Source: Escherichia phage T4. From it: 64,000 nt of DNA. The translations under genes were made by a program, and so were the position numbers. The notes below the pieces were generated by a model. It was not told where the DNA came from. It saw only the letters and a program-made list of their open reading frames with translations, and ran no database searches. The stretch lies in the sequence record NC_000866.4; one strand, 5' to 3'. Of this stretch, positions 10,561 to 53,196 are shown in pieces. Positions within the stretch are counted from its first letter, which is position 1. Every line of letters starts with the position of its first letter.

Positions 10561-11232
10561 CTATTTTATACGATAGCAATCAGGCATATCATCCGCATTT
10601 ATCCAATTGCGAATAGTTTTAGGACTAACTTTAAAATGCTCCGCTGCGTAATCAGGATTATCAAATTTAACGCCCTTTATACATATTGGAATAAATTTTT
10701 TAATACCACCAAGTTTTTCAGAAATAGCTTTACGATGTGAAATCGATATAGGTTTGTTTTTTCGTGGATGAACATGTGTTTTATAATATTCATTGCGCCC
10801 TTTAACTCGCTTCGCAATAGTTTCATCAGATTGCTTAACGCCTGTTTTTGCCTTTGATATTTTTCGTTTAGCTTCCACAGTCATTCCTTCTTTTGTTCGT
10901 ATTGATAACATATTACGATATGAAGGATCTTGCAAATGAACTATAACTGGATTTCCTCTGCCACCAATAGCAGCATTATAGGTATCAGTTCTCATAACGA
11001 ATTCCTCATTAACTAGTAAAGCTTCCATTTTATACATCTCCTCAGATGAGGAGAAAGAATAAAGAATTTCTTTTTTAAAGTTATGAATACCATATTTTTT
11101 GATGGATTTTTTGATGTTTACGCCAGAACCCATATAACCATCGTTTTCGTCAAGAGTAGCATGAGCTCCGATGTAAATTTTTCCATTGATGATATTAGTA
11201 ATTTGATATATTAAATATTTCATTTTAAACAT
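10561..11232 (-). CDS. segD: GIY-YIG homing endonuclease-like protein
   Basis: GIY-YIG motif (LIYQITNIINGKIYIG); ORF track starts at GTG 11235, first ATG at 11232 gives 223 aa; lies between genes 23 and 24 as T4 segD. Confidence 0.85.
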   Translation of the reverse strand: MFKMKYLIYQITNIINGKIYIGAHATLDENDGYMGSGVNIKKSIKKYGIHNFKKEILYSFSSSEEMYKMEALLVNEEFVMRTDTYNAAIGGRGNPVIVHLQDPSYRNMLSIRTKEGMTVEAKRKISKAKTGVKQSDETIAKRVKGRNEYYKTHVHPRKNKPISISHRKAISEKLGGIKKFIPICIKGVKFDNPDYAAEHFKVSPKTIRNWINADDMPDCYRIK

Positions 11233-11287
11233 CACTCCGTTTGTATATGATTATAATATCATATTACTTTGGTCTTGTAAATAACTT

Positions 11288-15326: not shown

Positions 15327-16007
15327 TTATTTTAATGTTACGAAAGAAGAGTTGCGTGTTTCACGAATTAAAACTGATCCATCGCGATTAATGTAATAAA
15401 TTAAGCTAAATAAAGTTTGGTGTGCTGACGCATGTTCAAAACTAGTTGGGTGAGATTTCCAATCAGGAGTTTCAGCAATCCATTGATAAATCCACCAAGG
15501 AACAGTACAGAATCCTAGATTTTTTCCAATCAGTTGAAGATTCGGACTAAAGTTTTCCGGAAGAGTAAATACAGACGGCTTTTCAGATTCAATAATCTCA
15601 GCTACAGCCTGTTCGAATTTTTCTTCAACAAAAGGAGTATCTTCAATCAAAACATCGGTATTTTCAGGAATTTTATCCGTTTCTACTACTTCAATTTTAA
15701 TGTCAGATTTAATCGGAGAATCAATCAGAAGTGCTGCTTCTGGATTGACTTCTTCATCGTCATATTTTAATCCCTCTGCGGCATCAGCAGCATCAATTAA
15801 GTCTTTAATAGATAACCCATCAGTCTCTGGCATAGGTTCACTAGCGAGCTTCTGGAGGGCTTCTTCAATATCAACAACGATATTATCAAAAGATTTATTC
15901 TTTTTGACCTTTATACCAAACTGTTCAGCATATTCAGCTAATTTAGCTTTAGCTTCTTTGTTATCATCAAGAGCCTTCAGCTCTGCAATATAATCTTTAT
16001 CTATCAT
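15327..16007 (-). CDS. inh: Inhibitor of prohead protease
   Basis: 226-aa acidic ORF adjacent to hoc; T4 inh position and length. Confidence 0.85.
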   Translation of the reverse strand: MIDKDYIAELKALDDNKEAKAKLAEYAEQFGIKVKKNKSFDNIVVDIEEALQKLASEPMPETDGLSIKDLIDAADAAEGLKYDDEEVNPEAALLIDSPIKSDIKIEVVETDKIPENTDVLIEDTPFVEEKFEQAVAEIIESEKPSVFTLPENFSPNLQLIGKNLGFCTVPWWIYQWIAETPDWKSHPTSFEHASAHQTLFSLIYYINRDGSVLIRETRNSSFVTLK

Positions 16008-16020
16008 AATATTTCCTCAG

Positions 16021-16028
16021 TATAAATA
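16021..16028 (+). promoter_or_regulatory. Late-promoter motif TATAAATA upstream of segE
   Basis: Exact TATAAATA 29 nt upstream of the segE ATG, in the inh-segE intergenic region. Confidence 0.5.
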
Positions 16029-16056
16029 TAGATATATTTATTACTCGGAAAATAGT

Positions 16057-16674
16057 ATGTACCACTTTGTATATGAAACAACAAATCTAATAAATGGTAA
16101 AAAGTATATAGGAAAGCACTCTACTGATGACTTGAATGATGGTTACCTTGGTTCCGGTAAGGCAATTCAGCAGGCTATAAAGAAATATGGTGAAAACAAT
16201 TTCTCTAGAACAATACTAAAAGAGTTTAAAACTTCCGAAGAAGCGTACATGTATGAAGAAGAAATTATAACTCCTGAACTAATAAAAAGCAAAAATTATT
16301 ATAATATGAAACCTGGTGGAATTGGTGGAATTGTTATGACTACAGATGTTATAGCAAAGATGAAAGAATCTTCCGCTAAAAGATTTGAAAACTCACCGGG
16401 CACGGTATTAGGTAAAACTTGTTATACTAATGGAACTAAAAATATTTTTATTAAACCTGGAGAACTTGTTCCAGAAGGATTTGTAAAAGGGATGGTTCAT
16501 CCTAATAGAAAGTCCAGAAAAGGATGTAAAGTCAAACCGACTACCACAGGAACTTTTTGGGTCAATAATGGCGCAATAAATAAATTAATACAACCAGACG
16601 GTATTATTCCCGACGGATTTATTAAAGGTCGTCTCATGAAAAGAGATTCTAAAGGCAAATTTAGTAAGGCATAA
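16057..16674 (+). CDS. segE: GIY-YIG homing endonuclease
   Basis: GIY-YIG motif (FVYETTNLINGKKYIG); 205 aa; between inh and uvsW as T4 segE. Confidence 0.88.
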   Translation: MYHFVYETTNLINGKKYIGKHSTDDLNDGYLGSGKAIQQAIKKYGENNFSRTILKEFKTSEEAYMYEEEIITPELIKSKNYYNMKPGGIGGIVMTTDVIAKMKESSAKRFENSPGTVLGKTCYTNGTKNIFIKPGELVPEGFVKGMVHPNRKSRKGCKVKPTTTGTFWVNNGAINKLIQPDGIIPDGFIKGRLMKRDSKGKFSKA

Positions 16675-40339: not shown

Positions 40340-41927
<1,588 letters not shown>

Positions 41928-41949
41928 AATAAAATGGGCCTTGCGGCCC
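41928..41949 (-). terminator. Hairpin between nrdB and denA
   Basis: Minus strand GGGCC-GCAA-GGCCC then AUUUUAUU, immediately before the denA AUG. Confidence 0.55.
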
Positions 41950-41954
41950 ACTCC

Positions 41955-47546: not shown

Positions 47547-48563
47547 CATTATGTTCAGATAAGGTCGTTAATCTTACCCCGGAATTATATCCAGCTGCAT
47601 GTCACCATGCAGAGCAGACTATATCTCCAACTTGTTAAAGCAAGTTGTCTATCGTTTCGAGTCACTTGACCCTACTCCCCAAAGGGATAGTCGTTAGGCA
47701 TTTATGTAGAACCAATTCCATTTATCAGATTTTACACGATAAGTAACTAATCCAGACGAAATTTTAAAATGTCTAGCTGCATCTGCTGCACAATCAAAAA
47801 TAACCCCATCACATGAAATCTTTTTAATATTACTAGGCTTTTTACCTTTCATCTTTTCTGATATTTTAGATTTAGTTATGTCTGAATGCTTATGATTAAA
47901 GAATGAATTATTTTCACCTGAACGATTTCTGCATTTACTACAAGTATAAGCAGAAGTTTGTATGCGAACACCGCACTTACAAAACTTATGGGTTTCTGGA
48001 TTCCAACGCCCGTTTTTACTTCCGGGTTTACTGTAAAGAGCTTTCCGACCATCAGGTCCAAGTTTAAGCATCTTAGCTTTAACAGTTTCAGAACGTTTCT
48101 TAATAATTTCTTCTTTTAATGGATGCGTAGAACATGTATCACCAAACGTTGCATCAGCAATATTGTATCCATTAATTTTAGAATTAAGCTCTTTAATCCA
48201 AAAATTTTCTCGTTCAATAATCAAATCTTTCTCATATGGAATTTCTTCCAAAATAGAACATTCAAACACATTACCATGTTTGTTAAAAGACCTCTGAAGT
48301 TTTATAGAAGAATGGCATCCTTTTTCTAAATCTTTAAAATGCCTCTTCCATCTCTTTTCAAAATCTTTAGCACTTCCTACATATACTTTATTGTTTAAAG
48401 TATTTTTAATCTGATAAATTCCGCTTTTCATAAATACCTCTTTAAATATAGAAGTATTTATTAAAGGGCAAGTCCTACAATTTAGCACGGGATTGTCTAC
48501 TAGAGAGGTTCCCCGTTTAGATAGATTACAAGTATAAGTCACCTTATACTCAGGCCTCAATTA
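47547..48563 (-). mobile_element. Group I self-splicing intron in td (about 1.0 kb) carrying I-TevI
   Basis: Exon 1 ends ...TTGGGT followed by intron TAATTGAGGCC; intron ends ...ATAATG before exon 2; conserved core shared with the nrdB intron. Confidence 0.92.
47694..48431 (-). CDS. I-TevI: Intron-encoded GIY-YIG homing endonuclease
   Basis: 245 aa from ATG at 48431 (MKSGIYQIKNTLNNKVYVGSAKD...), recognised as I-TevI; the ORF track extends 43 codons upstream by in-frame read-through. Confidence 0.95.
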   Translation of the reverse strand: MKSGIYQIKNTLNNKVYVGSAKDFEKRWKRHFKDLEKGCHSSIKLQRSFNKHGNVFECSILEEIPYEKDLIIERENFWIKELNSKINGYNIADATFGDTCSTHPLKEEIIKKRSETVKAKMLKLGPDGRKALYSKPGSKNGRWNPETHKFCKCGVRIQTSAYTCSKCRNRSGENNSFFNHKHSDITKSKISEKMKGKKPSNIKKISCDGVIFDCAADAARHFKISSGLVTYRVKSDKWNWFYINA

Positions 48564-50947: not shown

Positions 50948-51853
50948 TTAAAGGTCATTCAAAAGGTCATCCAGGTCCGTGTCATCAGCACTAGATGAAC
51001 TACCAGAGCTTGAGCTCATAAAATCATCTTCAGTTTTTGTATTGAAGTCATCAACATTGAATGCATCCAAATCATCAGCCACTTTATCAGCTTTCTTAGC
51101 AGCAGTTGCAGCAGCACCGCCCATCACAGCAGTTCCCATAACTTGACCGAATTTAGTATTAAGTTCTTCAAACGATTTGAATTTATCTTTAGAAGTCATT
51201 TCAGAAAGGTCAACCATTTGTTCGAACAGTTCTTTCTGGAAAGATTCATCGTCAATGTTTGGAATCGCAGATTGATTCAGGAATTTAGATTCATCGTAGT
51301 TACTAAATCCAGAAACTTGTTTAACTTTCAGTACAAAGTTAGCACCTTCCCACGGACAAGTTACATCAACTGGAGTTTCACCCATTTCAACATCAACCGC
51401 AATCATTGCATTGATTTTATCCCAGATTTTCTTACCAAAGCGGTATTTAAATACTTTACCTTCGTTTTCTGGAGCAGCTGGGTCTTTTACTACAAGAATG
51501 TTAGCCCAGTAAGAAGTTTTACGTTTAACAAGACTGTACTCTTTATTGTCAGTGTTGTATAGATCATTTTTACTGATGTATTGACATACTGGGCAAGAAT
51601 CGTAATCACCATGGGTAGATGAACATGTTTCAATATACCATTTACCATTTTTCTTGAAACCGTGATTTACAAGAATTGCGAATGGTGCTTGTTCATCATT
51701 TTTAGACGGAAGAAAACGAATTACTGCTTGACCGTTACCCGCATTATCGAGTTTCAGTTTCCACTCGCCTTTATCTTCAGAAGAAAAACCTTTATTGCCA
51801 TTCAGTTTAGCCATTTGTGCAGCGAGTTCAGCAGTAGATTTACGTTTAAACAT
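50948..51853 (-). CDS. 32: Single-stranded DNA-binding protein
   Basis: 301-aa ORF with zinc site ([14 protein letters not shown]) and acidic C-terminus; recognised as T4 gp32. Confidence 0.97.
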
Positions 51854-51920
51854 TTTTATTTCCTTTTTAATTTAATTTAATTAACAGTTGGTGCTATGAC
51901 ACTTTACCTCATAGCTGGCA
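51854..51920 (-). promoter_or_regulatory. Gene 32 translational operator (5' leader)
   Basis: Leader reads GCCAGCUAUGAGGUAAAGUGUCAUAGCACCAACUGUUAAUUAAAUUAAAUUAAAAAGGAAAUAAAA-AUG: hairpin GCUAUGA/UCAUAGC followed by an unstructured UUAAA-repeat tract. Confidence 0.75.
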
Positions 51921-52541
51921 TAATTCGCAATACTCTGGGTCTTCGAGAGGTATCCAACCTGAGTTGAAATACTTTACCATCGATTTAGCAGTTGTATCAG
52001 TTATATTTATATTACCTTTAACTCTTCGCCATCCAGGAGTTTTACCGTACAGATTAGAGGATAATAATAACACATAATTCTCGTAAGCAATATGAGATAA
52101 TTTCCAAGACTCTATATTAGCTCGTGATGTTTTCCAAGGTCTAAAATCGTCACGGTTCATATAATTAGCCAATCTCATATGCTCTCTAACTTCCGGGTCT
52201 TTGGCTGGATGAGTTTCACCACTCACACCAAATCCACCACCAGCATATACCAGATTAAAATAGTCTGGATTATCTCTGGCATTTACTTCAAGTTGGTATT
52301 TTCGTTCTGCTTCAATAACATCCAAGTCATCATCAATTTGAATTATTTTAACGCTCGGTTTTTGAAGCATTAGCGCATTCAAAAATCTTTTTTGTTTACA
52401 TGAGCTCCAGTATTCCTTTCCGGAAGAGTCATATATTATTCCGTTCTCAAATGAGCAATTTAATTTACTACCGATATAGTAGTATGGCGGAGTCTTATTT
52501 TTGACACGGTCTTCAAATGTAAACCAATATACTATATTCAT
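51909..52541 (-). CDS. segG: GIY-YIG-like homing endonuclease
   Basis: 210-aa ORF with a degenerate GIY-YIG N-terminus (VYWFTFEDRVKNKTPPYYYIG); lies between genes 32 and 59 as T4 segG. Confidence 0.7.
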   Translation of the reverse strand: MNIVYWFTFEDRVKNKTPPYYYIGSKLNCSFENGIIYDSSGKEYWSSCKQKRFLNALMLQKPSVKIIQIDDDLDVIEAERKYQLEVNARDNPDYFNLVYAGGGFGVSGETHPAKDPEVREHMRLANYMNRDDFRPWKTSRANIESWKLSHIAYENYVLLLSSNLYGKTPGWRRVKGNINITDTTAKSMVKYFNSGWIPLEDPEYCELCQL

Positions 52542-52542
52542 A

Positions 52543-53196
52543 TCAATACTTGCAAGATTTCACAGTTTCAATGAAAACATTTTTAGCTTTCTGTGAATCA
52601 ATATTTAAAATTTTTCTATAAGCCTTTAACTTTATAGAATAATTATTCCAGACTAAATTATCAGTCTGTTCATCATGTTTATCAATTATATTTAAAAACG
52701 AATCAAGCAAGATAAACGTCTCAAACGAAATTATGTTCGATTGCAGAAGTTTAAAAATATAACTTGATTGAACTTTTGGATTATACTCAAAAATTTCTTT
52801 AAAAGCAGAAACTTCAACTTTTTTACTAAAATAATAAATGTTGCGAATATCTTCTTCAAACTTAAATTTAATTTGCTTTAAGCGTCCGATATATTCACGA
52901 TAAAACACAAGTGCATCAGCGTCAGAGATGTCACCAATCCAAGCATCTTGGTTAGCAACCAAATTGCTTATAAAGATTAAAGCAAGTTCCTTTAATTTAT
53001 ATTTTTCTGATAACTTCTGGAAAAAATACTTATCCCTTCGCTTTTGATAAGCGGCATCAGACACCCGCATGCACCAATTATACTTAATTACATCATACTT
53101 TCCATTCATATGTTGTTTTATCATTAAGTATAATTTATAAACTGATTTACCATCAATGTATCTTTCACCACCAGCAGGCATGCGGAGTTTAATCAT
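52543..53196 (-). CDS. 59: Helicase loader
   Basis: 217-aa ORF; T4 gp59 length and position. Confidence 0.92.
   Translation of the reverse strand: MIKLRMPAGGERYIDGKSVYKLYLMIKQHMNGKYDVIKYNWCMRVSDAAYQKRRDKYFFQKLSEKYKLKELALIFISNLVANQDAWIGDISDADALVFYREYIGRLKQIKFKFEEDIRNIYYFSKKVEVSAFKEIFEYNPKVQSSYIFKLLQSNIISFETFILLDSFLNIIDKHDEQTDNLVWNNYSIKLKAYRKILNIDSQKAKNVFIETVKSCKY

What the first reader, a model, noticed from the sequence alone, without database searches (positions are those of the whole stretch)
51909..52541. Degenerate GIY-YIG endonuclease gene (segG) whose 3' end abuts the gene 32 operator
The ORF has a non-canonical GIY-YIG N-terminus (VYWF...YYYIG). Its coding 3' end lies within about 10 nt of the gene 32 leader pseudoknot, so endonuclease gene and autoregulatory RNA element are tightly packed.
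Basis: partly seen in the sequence, partly recalled or inferred. Interest (0 to 1): 0.35.

Follow-up and report, generated by a model that had tools for sequence, protein, structure and literature searches.

The report
Phage T4 segG homing endonuclease gene
This is the well-studied segG gene of bacteriophage T4, a working selfish DNA-cutting enzyme gene wedged between genes 59 and 32, whose last codons also form part of the known RNA knot that controls gene 32; it is textbook material, not a discovery.

Summary
The window is phage T4 (100% identity). ORF 51909..52541(-) is segG (formerly 32.1), 210 aa, annotated and published as an active GIY-YIG homing endonuclease that drives exclusion of T2 gene 32. 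Two corrections follow.

1. The gene does not stop about 10 nt from the gene 32 pseudoknot. Its last 12 nt, including the UGA stop, are the 5' half of the pseudoknot (51893..51920, -67 to -40), as already noted in the 2004 RB69 paper.

The gene shows presence/absence polymorphism: about 139 related phage genomes carry it and about 357 have the empty site. A late-promoter consensus for gene 32 lies inside it, and the published RNase E cut at -71 falls in its codon 206/207. Everything important is already known, so interest is low.

The parts
51909..52541 (-). segG (formerly ORF 32.1) coding sequence, 210 codons plus UGA stop
   Evidence: ORF list. It is 100% identical to T4 records, where it is annotated 'segG, GIY-YIG family homing endonuclease'. 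PHROG 7504 'homing endonuclease' matches at E 1e-133.
52227..52541 (-). N-terminal nuclease domain (about aa 1-105), a divergent GIY-YIG fold. Key residues: Y5 (the 'GIY' Tyr, here V-Y-W), Y22-I23-G24 ('YIG'), Y44, S47, E79, N96.
51912..52205 (-). C-terminal all-helical domain (about aa 113-210), presumed DNA-binding module
   Evidence: The model shows helices 116-125, 143-161, 171-175, 182-193 and 202-209. Structure hits to this part are helix-turn-helix or winged-helix DNA-binding domains, but they are weak. PHROG homing-endonuclease families 25551, 26163 and 655 match aa 113-206. Relatives that share the N-domain carry different C-termini; NUMOD3 is present in 50 of 87.
51893..51920 (-). 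Gene 32 mRNA H-type pseudoknot, the nucleation site of the translational operator. Stem 1 is UGCC (51920-51917) paired with GGUA (51908-51905). Loop 1 is A (51916). Stem 2 is GCUAUGA (51915-51909) paired with UCAUAGC (51899-51893). Loop 2 is AAGUG (51904-51900).
   Evidence: Read from the sequence. Stem 2 is recovered by MFE folding. Across 9 T4-like leaders 100% of cells pair and 7 of 11 pairs show compensatory changes, with 0 of 500 shuffles as good. The position matches the literature (-67; about 28 nt) in PMC3014915 and PMC535899.
51909..51920 (-). Overlap of the segG reading frame (codons C208, Q209, L210 and stop) with the 5' strands of both pseudoknot stems
   Evidence: Coordinates. The overlap is noted in PMC535899 (Fig. 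3 legend and Discussion).
51921..51927 (-). Region of the published RNase E processing site at -71 (-71 = 51924), inside segG codons E206/L207 and 13 nt before the stop codon
   Evidence: [quoted passage not shown] It was mapped onto the window. The local sequence is GCGAAUUAUGCC.
51854..51892 (-). Unstructured A/U-rich part of the gene 32 operator, with UUAAA/UAAA repeats and the Shine-Dalgarno sequence AAGGA
   Evidence: The sequence is ACCAACUGUUAAUUAAAUUAAAUUAAAAAGGAAAUAAAA. The function is described in PMC535899 and PMC3014915.
50948..51853 (-). [quoted passage not shown]
   Evidence: Pfam PF08804 gp32, E 5e-67. Annotation. The target-gene assignment comes from PMC2988022 Table 1.
52004..52011 (-). 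T4 late-promoter consensus TATAAATA inside segG, at -158 to -151 relative to the gene 32 AUG
   Evidence: Pattern search. The literature states that the gene 32 middle and late promoters lie within segG (PMC2988022). That this particular site is the mapped promoter is an inference.
52363..52371 (-). MotA-box-like sequence AATGCTTCA inside segG, a candidate middle-promoter element. A second candidate, ATTGCTTAC, lies at 52083-52091.
   Evidence: Pattern search only. It was not shown which site, if either, is the published middle promoter.
52539..52545 (-). Junction of gene 59 and segG: gene 59 stop TGA, one base, then the segG ATG. There is no Shine-Dalgarno sequence upstream.
   Evidence: Sequence. 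Homologous seg genes in LHE83 and RZ overlap gene 59 by ATGA. Translational coupling is an inference.
51919..52544 (-). T4-specific segment (about 626 nt) that replaces a 38-nt spacer in segG-less (T2-type) phages; this is the mobile cassette
   Evidence: Three-way alignment of T4, L003 and L004. The empty-site allele is contiguous in 357 phage records. The filled allele is present in 139.

Best explanation
The ORF is the phage T4 gene segG. It encodes a free-standing, two-domain homing endonuclease: an N-terminal, sequence-divergent GIY-YIG nuclease domain and a C-terminal helical DNA-binding domain. According to the literature, SegG cuts gene 32 DNA of co-infecting relatives that lack segG, such as T2. 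Recombinational repair from the T4 copy then copies segG and the flanking T4 gene 32 into the recipient, a process called intronless homing or marker exclusion.

The cassette sits exactly between the gene 59 stop codon and the gene 32 translational operator. Because it has no space of its own, it is fused to its neighbours in four ways.
- Its start codon lies 1 nt after the gene 59 stop.
- It carries a late-promoter consensus, and per the literature the middle promoter, for gene 32 inside its coding sequence.
- The published RNase E -71 processing site lies in its codons 206/207.
- Its last three codons plus the stop codon form the 5' strands of both stems of the gene 32 pseudoknot.

Shown here: identity, ORF, fold, conserved residues, pseudoknot geometry and covariation, and the presence/absence polymorphism. 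Taken from the literature: nuclease activity, homing, promoter use and RNase E cleavage. Inferred: translational coupling to gene 59, and that the C-terminal peptide ELCQL is dictated by RNA constraints.
For: Identity and annotation:
- 100% nucleotide identity to T4 genomes, annotated there as segG, a GIY-YIG homing endonuclease.
- Intact 210-aa ORF.

Evidence for a GIY-YIG nuclease:
- High-confidence AlphaFold2 model, mean pLDDT 91.
- The I-TevI domain is also the top Foldseek hit, though the match is weak.
- The N-domain profile aligns to the SegE GIY-YIG family at 87% probability, E 3.7e-6, with YIG, Y44/S47, E79 and N96 on that family's conserved columns.
- Y5, Y22, I23, G24, Y44, S47, E79 and N96 are at least 90% conserved in 88 sequences as low as about 22% identical.
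- 50 of 87 remote relatives carry NUMOD3 homing-endonuclease DNA-binding motifs.

Evidence for mobility:
- The filled site occurs in 139 phage records and the empty site in 357.
- The boundaries lie at the gene 59 stop codon and at pseudoknot stem 1.
- Divergent seg alleles occupy the same slot in Dhakavirus, Gaprivervirus and Karamvirus phages.

Evidence for the RNA overlap and embedded signals:
- Pseudoknot geometry and covariation.
- Late-promoter consensus inside segG.
- No terminator-like site on the coding strand between segG and gene 32.

Literature:
- SegG is active and targets gene 32 (PMC2988022 Table 1; PMC2330249; PMC535899, citing Liu et al. 2003, J Mol Biol 334:13).
- The overlap with the pseudoknot (PMC535899).
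- Promoters embedded in segG, and RNase E processing (PMC2988022, PMC3014915).
Against: No curated GIY-YIG sequence model matches. Pfam PF01541 and NCBIfam give nothing for SegG at E<=1 or E<=10. None of 25 close and 87 remote relatives hits PF01541. phmmer against PDB sequences finds nothing. The Foldseek E-value is poor, at 1.3. The catalytic Arg of canonical GIY-YIG enzymes could not be placed confidently. The primary paper on SegG activity (Liu et al. 2003) could not be read here, so activity rests on secondary citations.
Confidence: 0.95

Rival explanations
1. segG is a decayed, inactive remnant (the literal reading of 'degenerate'). On this view it is kept in T4 only because it carries the gene 32 promoters, the RNase E site and half of the pseudoknot.
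For: Pfam and NCBIfam GIY-YIG models fail to match. The first motif is VYW and not GIY. The embedded promoter and operator sequences would select against deletion (PMC2988022). One metagenomic T4-like contig (L003) has a frameshift in segG.
Against: The ORF is intact and 97.6-100% identical at the protein level in 139 phage records. The catalytic-type residues are conserved across a family of 294 clusters at 50% identity. The fold is predicted with high confidence. The literature lists SegG as active and responsible for exclusion of T2 gene 32 (PMC2988022, PMC2330249).
Confidence: 0.03
2. The protein is a nuclease or DNA-binding protein of a fold other than GIY-YIG, and the YIG tripeptide is coincidental.
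For: There is no sequence-profile match to PF01541. hhalign against the single I-TevI sequence found nothing in the N-domain.
Confidence: 0.02
3. The overlap is functional and not just tight packing. Ribosomes terminating segG inside stem 2 would unfold the operator on unprocessed polycistronic mRNA. RNase E cutting at -71 would leave segG mRNA without a stop codon. Expression of the endonuclease and of gp32 would then be mechanistically coupled.
For: The geometry permits it. The stop codon lies in stem 2 and the -71 site lies 13 nt upstream of the stop (PMC3014915). There is no terminator between the genes. The review suggests RNase E processing may lower seg transcript levels (PMC2988022).
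Against: In the Dhakavirus phage LHE83 the homologous seg gene ends about 25 nt before the pseudoknot, so the overlap is not conserved. segG-less phages regulate gene 32 with the same pseudoknot. No experimental data were found in the papers searched.
Confidence: 0.15

Closest known systems
T4 SegG (ORF 32.1) homing endonuclease, Liu et al. 2003, J Mol Biol 334:13 (cited in PMC535899, PMC2988022, PMC2330249)
   Same: It is the same gene. The nucleotide sequence is 100% identical to T4 records, with the same position between genes 59 and 32.
   Different: Nothing differs. The window is T4.
T4 SegE / SegD type GIY-YIG endonucleases (Pfam PF19835, PF01541)
   Same: Both are free-standing phage homing endonucleases with an N-terminal nuclease domain. 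The conserved pattern YIG...Y.GS...E...YxN is shared, and the profile-profile match is 87% probability, E 3.7e-6.
   Different: SegD and SegE from this same window hit PF19835 above threshold and PF01541 just below it. SegG and its family hit neither. SegG has VYW in place of GIY, an invariant R12 and P19 between the two motifs, and a different C-terminal domain.
I-TevI catalytic domain (PDB 1LN0)
   Different: Sequence identity is only 17%. I-TevI is intron-encoded, has a zinc finger and an HTH DNA-binding domain, and cleaves within 25 bp of its insertion site. Free-standing Seg enzymes cut hundreds of bp away (PMC2988022).
Gene 32 autoregulatory pseudoknot of T2, T4 and RB69 (NMR structure 2TPK, cited in PMC3014915)
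   Same: The window has the same H-type pseudoknot at -67 to -40, followed by UUAAA repeats.
   Different: In T2-type phages the whole pseudoknot is intergenic. In T4 its 5' 12 nt are also the end of the segG reading frame. This was already noted in PMC535899.

Membership tests
GIY-YIG nuclease superfamily | Characteristic alpha/beta fold: a three-stranded sheet flanked by helices, as in I-TevI | tested here: met
GIY-YIG nuclease superfamily | First motif 'GIY': a conserved Tyr in strand 1 | tested here: met
The motif is V4-Y5-W6.
GIY-YIG nuclease superfamily | Second motif 'YIG' | tested here: met
   Y22-I23-G24 is invariant or nearly invariant. It aligns with the YIG of the SegE family.
GIY-YIG nuclease superfamily | Conserved catalytic Arg after the YIG motif (Arg, Glu and Asn function in catalysis, PMC2988022) | tested here: inconclusive
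   T4 SegG has K49-Q50-K51-R52, but R52 is replaced in several homologues. R12 is invariant in close relatives but lies between the two motifs. No residue-level structural superposition was available.
GIY-YIG nuclease superfamily | Catalytic Glu and the downstream Asn | tested here: met
   E79 and N96 are invariant or at least 90% conserved. hhalign aligns them with the invariant E67 and near-invariant N83 of the SegE family.
GIY-YIG nuclease superfamily | Match to the curated sequence profile (Pfam PF01541 or a related model). This is an operational criterion, not a biochemical one. | tested here: not met
   There are no Pfam hits at E<=1 and no NCBIfam hits at E<=10. None of 112 relatives hits PF01541; 6 give weak PF19835 hits. 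Positive controls from the same window do match: I-TevI 2e-18, EndoII 2e-6, SegD and SegE.
GIY-YIG nuclease superfamily | Metal-dependent DNA cleavage activity | not testable with these tools
   SegG is listed as 'Active: Yes' in PMC2988022 Table 1, citing Liu et al. 2003. The primary paper is not held.
Free-standing homing endonuclease gene (intronless homing) | Presence/absence polymorphism at one precise intergenic site among closely related genomes | tested here: met
   The filled site occurs in 139 records and the empty site, with genes 59 and 32 contiguous, in 357 records. The boundaries were mapped.
Free-standing homing endonuclease gene (intronless homing) | Modular build: a nuclease domain plus an exchangeable DNA-binding domain | tested here: met
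   The model has two domains joined by a low-confidence linker at about residues 101-120. Many phage homologues share only residues 1-100/124. NUMOD3 is present in 50 of 87 remote relatives.
Free-standing homing endonuclease gene (intronless homing) | Cleaves the endonuclease-lacking allele and is inherited with co-conversion of the flanks | not testable with these tools
   Literature only: SegG directs exclusion of T2 gene 32 (PMC2330249, PMC535899, PMC2988022).
T4-type gene 32 translational operator | H-type pseudoknot of about 28 nt at the 5' edge, supported by covariation | tested here: met
   All 11 pairs are formed in 9 phages, and 7 pairs show double changes. The slid-partner controls pair in only 27-43% of cells. 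Caveat: the registers were chosen by hand with the structure in mind.
T4-type gene 32 translational operator | An A/U-rich unstructured tract with UUAAA/UAAA repeats reaching the ribosome binding site | tested here: met
   The sequence 51892-51854 reads ...UUAAUUAAAUUAAAUUAAAAAGGAAAUAAAA, followed by AUG.
T4-type gene 32 translational operator | Specific binding and repression by gp32 | not testable with these tools
   Literature: the T4 gp32 footprint runs from +3 to -70 (PMC535899).

The most novel reading that the evidence does not exclude
The 12-nt overlap may be a regulatory coupling and not just economy of space. On polycistronic transcripts, ribosomes finishing segG at the UGA inside stem 2 would melt the gp32 nucleation site. 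After the RNase E cut at -71, the upstream fragment is a stop-less segG message whose product would be tmRNA-tagged. The gene 32 RNA elements would then throttle the endonuclease, and segG translation would transiently relieve gene 32 repression. I found no paper that tests this.
Probability: 0.12. Interest if true: 0.4.

Novelty: already known. Interest (0 to 1): 0.08.

Why it matters
It matters little as a discovery, because the gene, its activity, its embedded promoters, the RNase E site and the overlap with the pseudoknot are all in the T4 literature. Two small practical points emerge. First, the SegG-type nuclease domain forms a family of at least 294 clusters at 50% identity that current Pfam and NCBIfam GIY-YIG models miss, so automated annotation can label such genes 'hypothetical protein', as some T4-like records do. 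Second, the locus shows clearly how a selfish gene becomes hard to delete by sharing nucleotides with essential regulatory RNA of its neighbour.

Tried and rejected
- Rfam scan of 51500-52900 at E<=10 gave only chance hits well below their gathering scores. No hit was to a gene 32 pseudoknot family, so Rfam could not be used to place it.
- phmmer of SegG against PDB sequences gave nothing meaningful.
- hhalign of the full-length family against the single I-TevI sequence gave no N-domain match. A family-against-family comparison was needed.
- MFE folding of the leader is not better than shuffles (z -0.6). This is expected for a short pseudoknot that the program cannot represent, so it was not used as evidence either way.
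- The sigma-70 and terminator scan found no more sites than in shuffles. T4 late and middle promoters were therefore searched by their own consensus.
- MAFFT misaligned the stem 1 3' strand of the leaders. I therefore built a loop-free, hand-registered alignment.
- The primary SegG paper (PMID 14596796) is not held, so the exact cleavage position in T2 gene 32 is not quoted.
- I considered and rejected two readings: that the + strand ORFs inside segG are genes, since they have no support, and that segG is a pseudogene.

Full report
**What is there**

The stretch 51700-52800 of the window is 100% identical to bacteriophage T4 genomes. In MT984581 the ORF at window 51909..52541 (minus strand) is annotated 'segG, GIY-YIG family, site-specific DNA endonuclease, homing endonuclease'. 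It is flanked by gene 59 (helicase loader) upstream and gene 32 (ssDNA-binding protein) downstream.

It has an ATG start and 210 codons, and the N-terminus reads MNIVYWFTFEDRVKNKTPPYYYIGSK. Pfam confirms the neighbours: gp32 at 5e-67 and both gp59 domains at about 1e-53.

**Is it a GIY-YIG enzyme, and is it 'degenerate'?**

The first half is literally met:
- Pfam gives no family at E<=1 and NCBIfam none at E<=10.
- None of 25 close homologues or 87 remote relatives hits PF01541.
- phmmer against PDB sequences finds nothing.

The same Pfam search recognises the other GIY-YIG genes in this same window: I-TevI at 2e-18, endonuclease II at 2e-6, and SegD and SegE through PF19835. SegG is therefore a true sequence outlier.

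Three independent lines nevertheless place it in the fold.

2. Profile-profile comparison. A profile of the SegG N-domain (A2) aligns to a profile of 40 SegE-type domains, most of which carry PF19835 or PF01541 (A5). The probability is 87% and E is 3.7e-6. SegG Y22-I23-G24, Y44, S47, E79 and N96 fall on that family's invariant or near-invariant YIG, Y, S, E and N columns.

3. Conservation. An exhaustive profile search finds 294 clusters at 50% identity with this N-domain. In 88 of them, as low as about 22% identical, M1, Y5, P19, Y22, I23, G24, S25, K26, Y44, S47, E79 and N96 are at least 90% conserved. Of the 87 relatives, 50 carry NUMOD3 motifs, the DNA-binding modules typical of homing endonucleases.

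The canonical catalytic Arg could not be placed. R52 is not invariant, and the invariant R12 is in an unusual position.

Activity cannot be tested here. The review table lists SegG as active with gene 32 as its target (PMC2988022). Two further papers state that SegG directs exclusion of T2 gene 32 in T4 x T2 crosses (PMC2330249, PMC535899, all citing Liu et al. 2003). The primary paper is not held.

Conclusion: the first motif is non-canonical (VYW for GIY), the second is canonical, and the enzyme is divergent in sequence but not decayed.

**Relation to the gene 32 operator**

Gene 32 starts at 51853 and segG's stop codon occupies 51911-51909, which leaves a 55-nt spacer. Counting from the A of the AUG, the pseudoknot is laid out as follows:

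| Element | Sequence | Position |
|---|---|---|
| Stem 1, 5' strand | UGCC | -67 to -64 |
| Loop 1 | A | -63 |
| Stem 2, 5' strand | GCUAUGA | -62 to -56 |
| Stem 1, 3' strand | GGUA | -55 to -52 |
| Loop 2 | AAGUG | -51 to -47 |
| Stem 2, 3' strand | UCAUAGC | -46 to -40 |

This corresponds to window 51920..51893. MFE folding recovers stem 2. The position agrees with '67 nucleotides upstream' (PMC3014915) and 'about 28-nucleotide component' (PMC535899).

I extracted the equivalent segments from nine T4-like leaders: T4, a T2-type allele, and seven more divergent phages. All 99 cells pair. Seven of 11 pairs show compensatory double changes. None of 500 shuffles reaches this, and slid-partner controls pair in only 27-43% of cells. 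The caveat is that I chose the registers by eye with the structure in mind.

Codons C208-Q209-L210 and the UGA stop of segG (51920..51909) are therefore the 5' strands of both stems. This is an overlap of 12 nt and not a gap of about 10 nt. [quoted passage not shown] They proposed that segG's reading frame was extended into a pre-existing pseudoknot (PMC535899).

**Other shared signals**

- All gene 32 mRNAs are processed by RNase E at -71 (PMC3014915). This maps to window 51924, at segG codons E206/L207 and 13 nt before the stop.
- The review states that the middle and late promoters of gene 32 lie inside segG, and that segG itself is a promoter-less cassette read from upstream promoters (PMC2988022).
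- I find the late consensus TATAAATA at 52011-52004 (-158), and MotA-box-like sequences at 52371-52363 and 52091-52083. Which MotA box is the mapped promoter was not established.
- No terminator-like site lies on the coding strand between segG and gene 32. This is consistent with the published read-through.
- At the 5' end, the gene 59 stop TGA is followed by one base and then the segG ATG, with no Shine-Dalgarno sequence. In phages LHE83 and RZ the homologous gene overlaps gene 59 by ATGA. This suggests translational coupling, which is an inference.

**Mobility signature**

Aligning T4 with a segG-less allele (L004, gp59 100% and gp32 97% identical) shows where homology breaks. It breaks at the gene 59 stop codon and resumes at the CC of stem 1.

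About 626 nt of T4 (52544..51919) replace a 38-nt spacer, AATTGCTTATTATAAATAGATTATAATTATCTCACTGA. That spacer contains a TATAAATA and a TTGCTTA box. Stem 1 differs between the two alleles in a compensated way: UGCC/GGUA against UGACC/GGUCA.

In the phage collection, 139 records carry the filled site and 357 carry the empty site as one contiguous match.

Divergent SegG homologues of 58%, 40% and 36% identity occupy the same 59/32 slot in a Dhakavirus, a Gaprivervirus and a Karamvirus. Homologues that share only the N-domain sit at other loci, for example next to gene 49.

In LHE83 the seg gene ends about 25 nt before the pseudoknot. The overlap is therefore a T4-lineage detail and not a conserved feature.

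**How it works (best explanation, confidence about 0.95)**

segG is a selfish, free-standing homing endonuclease gene. It is transcribed as part of the 59-segG-32 polycistronic messages and probably translated by coupling to gene 59. Its product cuts gene 32 DNA of segG-less relatives during co-infection. Repair from T4 DNA then co-converts segG and the T4 gene 32 alleles.

Its coding sequence carries the gene 32 promoters, the RNase E site and half of the operator. This makes clean loss of the cassette costly, an argument already made in PMC2988022.

**Rivals**

- An inactive remnant (about 0.03).
- Not a GIY-YIG fold (about 0.02).
- A functional coupling between segG translation, RNase E processing and gene 32 autoregulation (about 0.12-0.15). 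The geometry permits it, it is untested, and the overlap is not conserved in LHE83.

**Novelty and score**

This is already known in every important respect. The only mildly new points are two. The SegG-type nuclease domain family, at least 294 clusters at 50% identity, escapes current Pfam and NCBIfam GIY-YIG models. The non-stop and operator-melting consequence of the overlap appears not to have been tested. Interest is 0.08.

Noticed in passing
L003:1954-2448 (IMGVR_UViG_3300045988_128797); equivalent to window ~52385: A T4-like metagenomic contig has a 1-nt insertion in the A6-GA-T5 run of segG. This shifts the frame after about codon 52, and the rest of the gene is 95% identical. It is either a natural segG pseudogene or an assembly error in a homopolymer. 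Some GenBank 'T4' records also annotate two endonuclease fragments here (H27).
   Followed up: partly
window 52539-52545; L082:1501-1504; L083:1501-1504: The gene 59 stop and the segG start are 1 nt apart in T4 (TGA-T-ATG), with no Shine-Dalgarno sequence. In LHE83 and RZ they overlap as ATGA. This suggests the endonuclease is translated by coupling to gene 59.
   Followed up: partly
L006-L015, L020 (positions ~2440-2503); window 51879-51889: In several T4-like phages gene 59 ends only about 12 nt before the gene 32 AUG, so the gene 32 leader lies inside gene 59 and no T4-type pseudoknot is visible. The AACTGTT(A/C)AT stretch just 3' of the T4 pseudoknot resembles the last gene 59 codons (..QLFIKTVKNCKY) of these phages, and L020 has the ACTGTAAAT segment twice. 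The T4-type leader may descend from a duplicated gene 59 3' end.
   Followed up: no
window 51896-51924, + strand: There is a sigma-70-like match (ATGACA, 17 nt, TG-CATAAT; 10 of 12) antisense to the gene 32 pseudoknot and pointing into segG antisense. The number of such matches in the region is not above shuffles (9 against 7.2), so it is probably chance. Antisense transcription of gene 32 is mentioned in the title of Belin et al. 1987, cited in PMC3014915.
   Followed up: no
window 10564-11250 (-), 15994-16671 (+), 41520-41954 (-), 47697-48560 (-): Four other GIY-YIG genes lie in the same window: segD, segE, denA (endonuclease II) and I-TevI in the td intron. All are recognised by Pfam, unlike segG. 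SegD and SegE score just below the PF01541 cut-off and are rescued by PF19835.
   Followed up: yes
phage records H56-H70: The SegG-type N-domain (residues 1-100/124, 30-54% identity) is joined to different C-terminal regions and inserted at other loci in Klebsiella, Proteus, Salmonella and Escherichia T4-like phages, for example beside gene 49 (endonuclease VII). This is domain shuffling among homing endonucleases.
   Followed up: partly
L004/L005:2402-2440 (T2-type 59-32 spacer): The segG-less allele has AAUUAU 5 nt further upstream of its pseudoknot than the AAUUAU at the T4 -71 RNase E site. This fits the published statement that the processing site is conserved among T4 relatives despite reorganised upstream regions (PMC3014915).
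   Followed up: no
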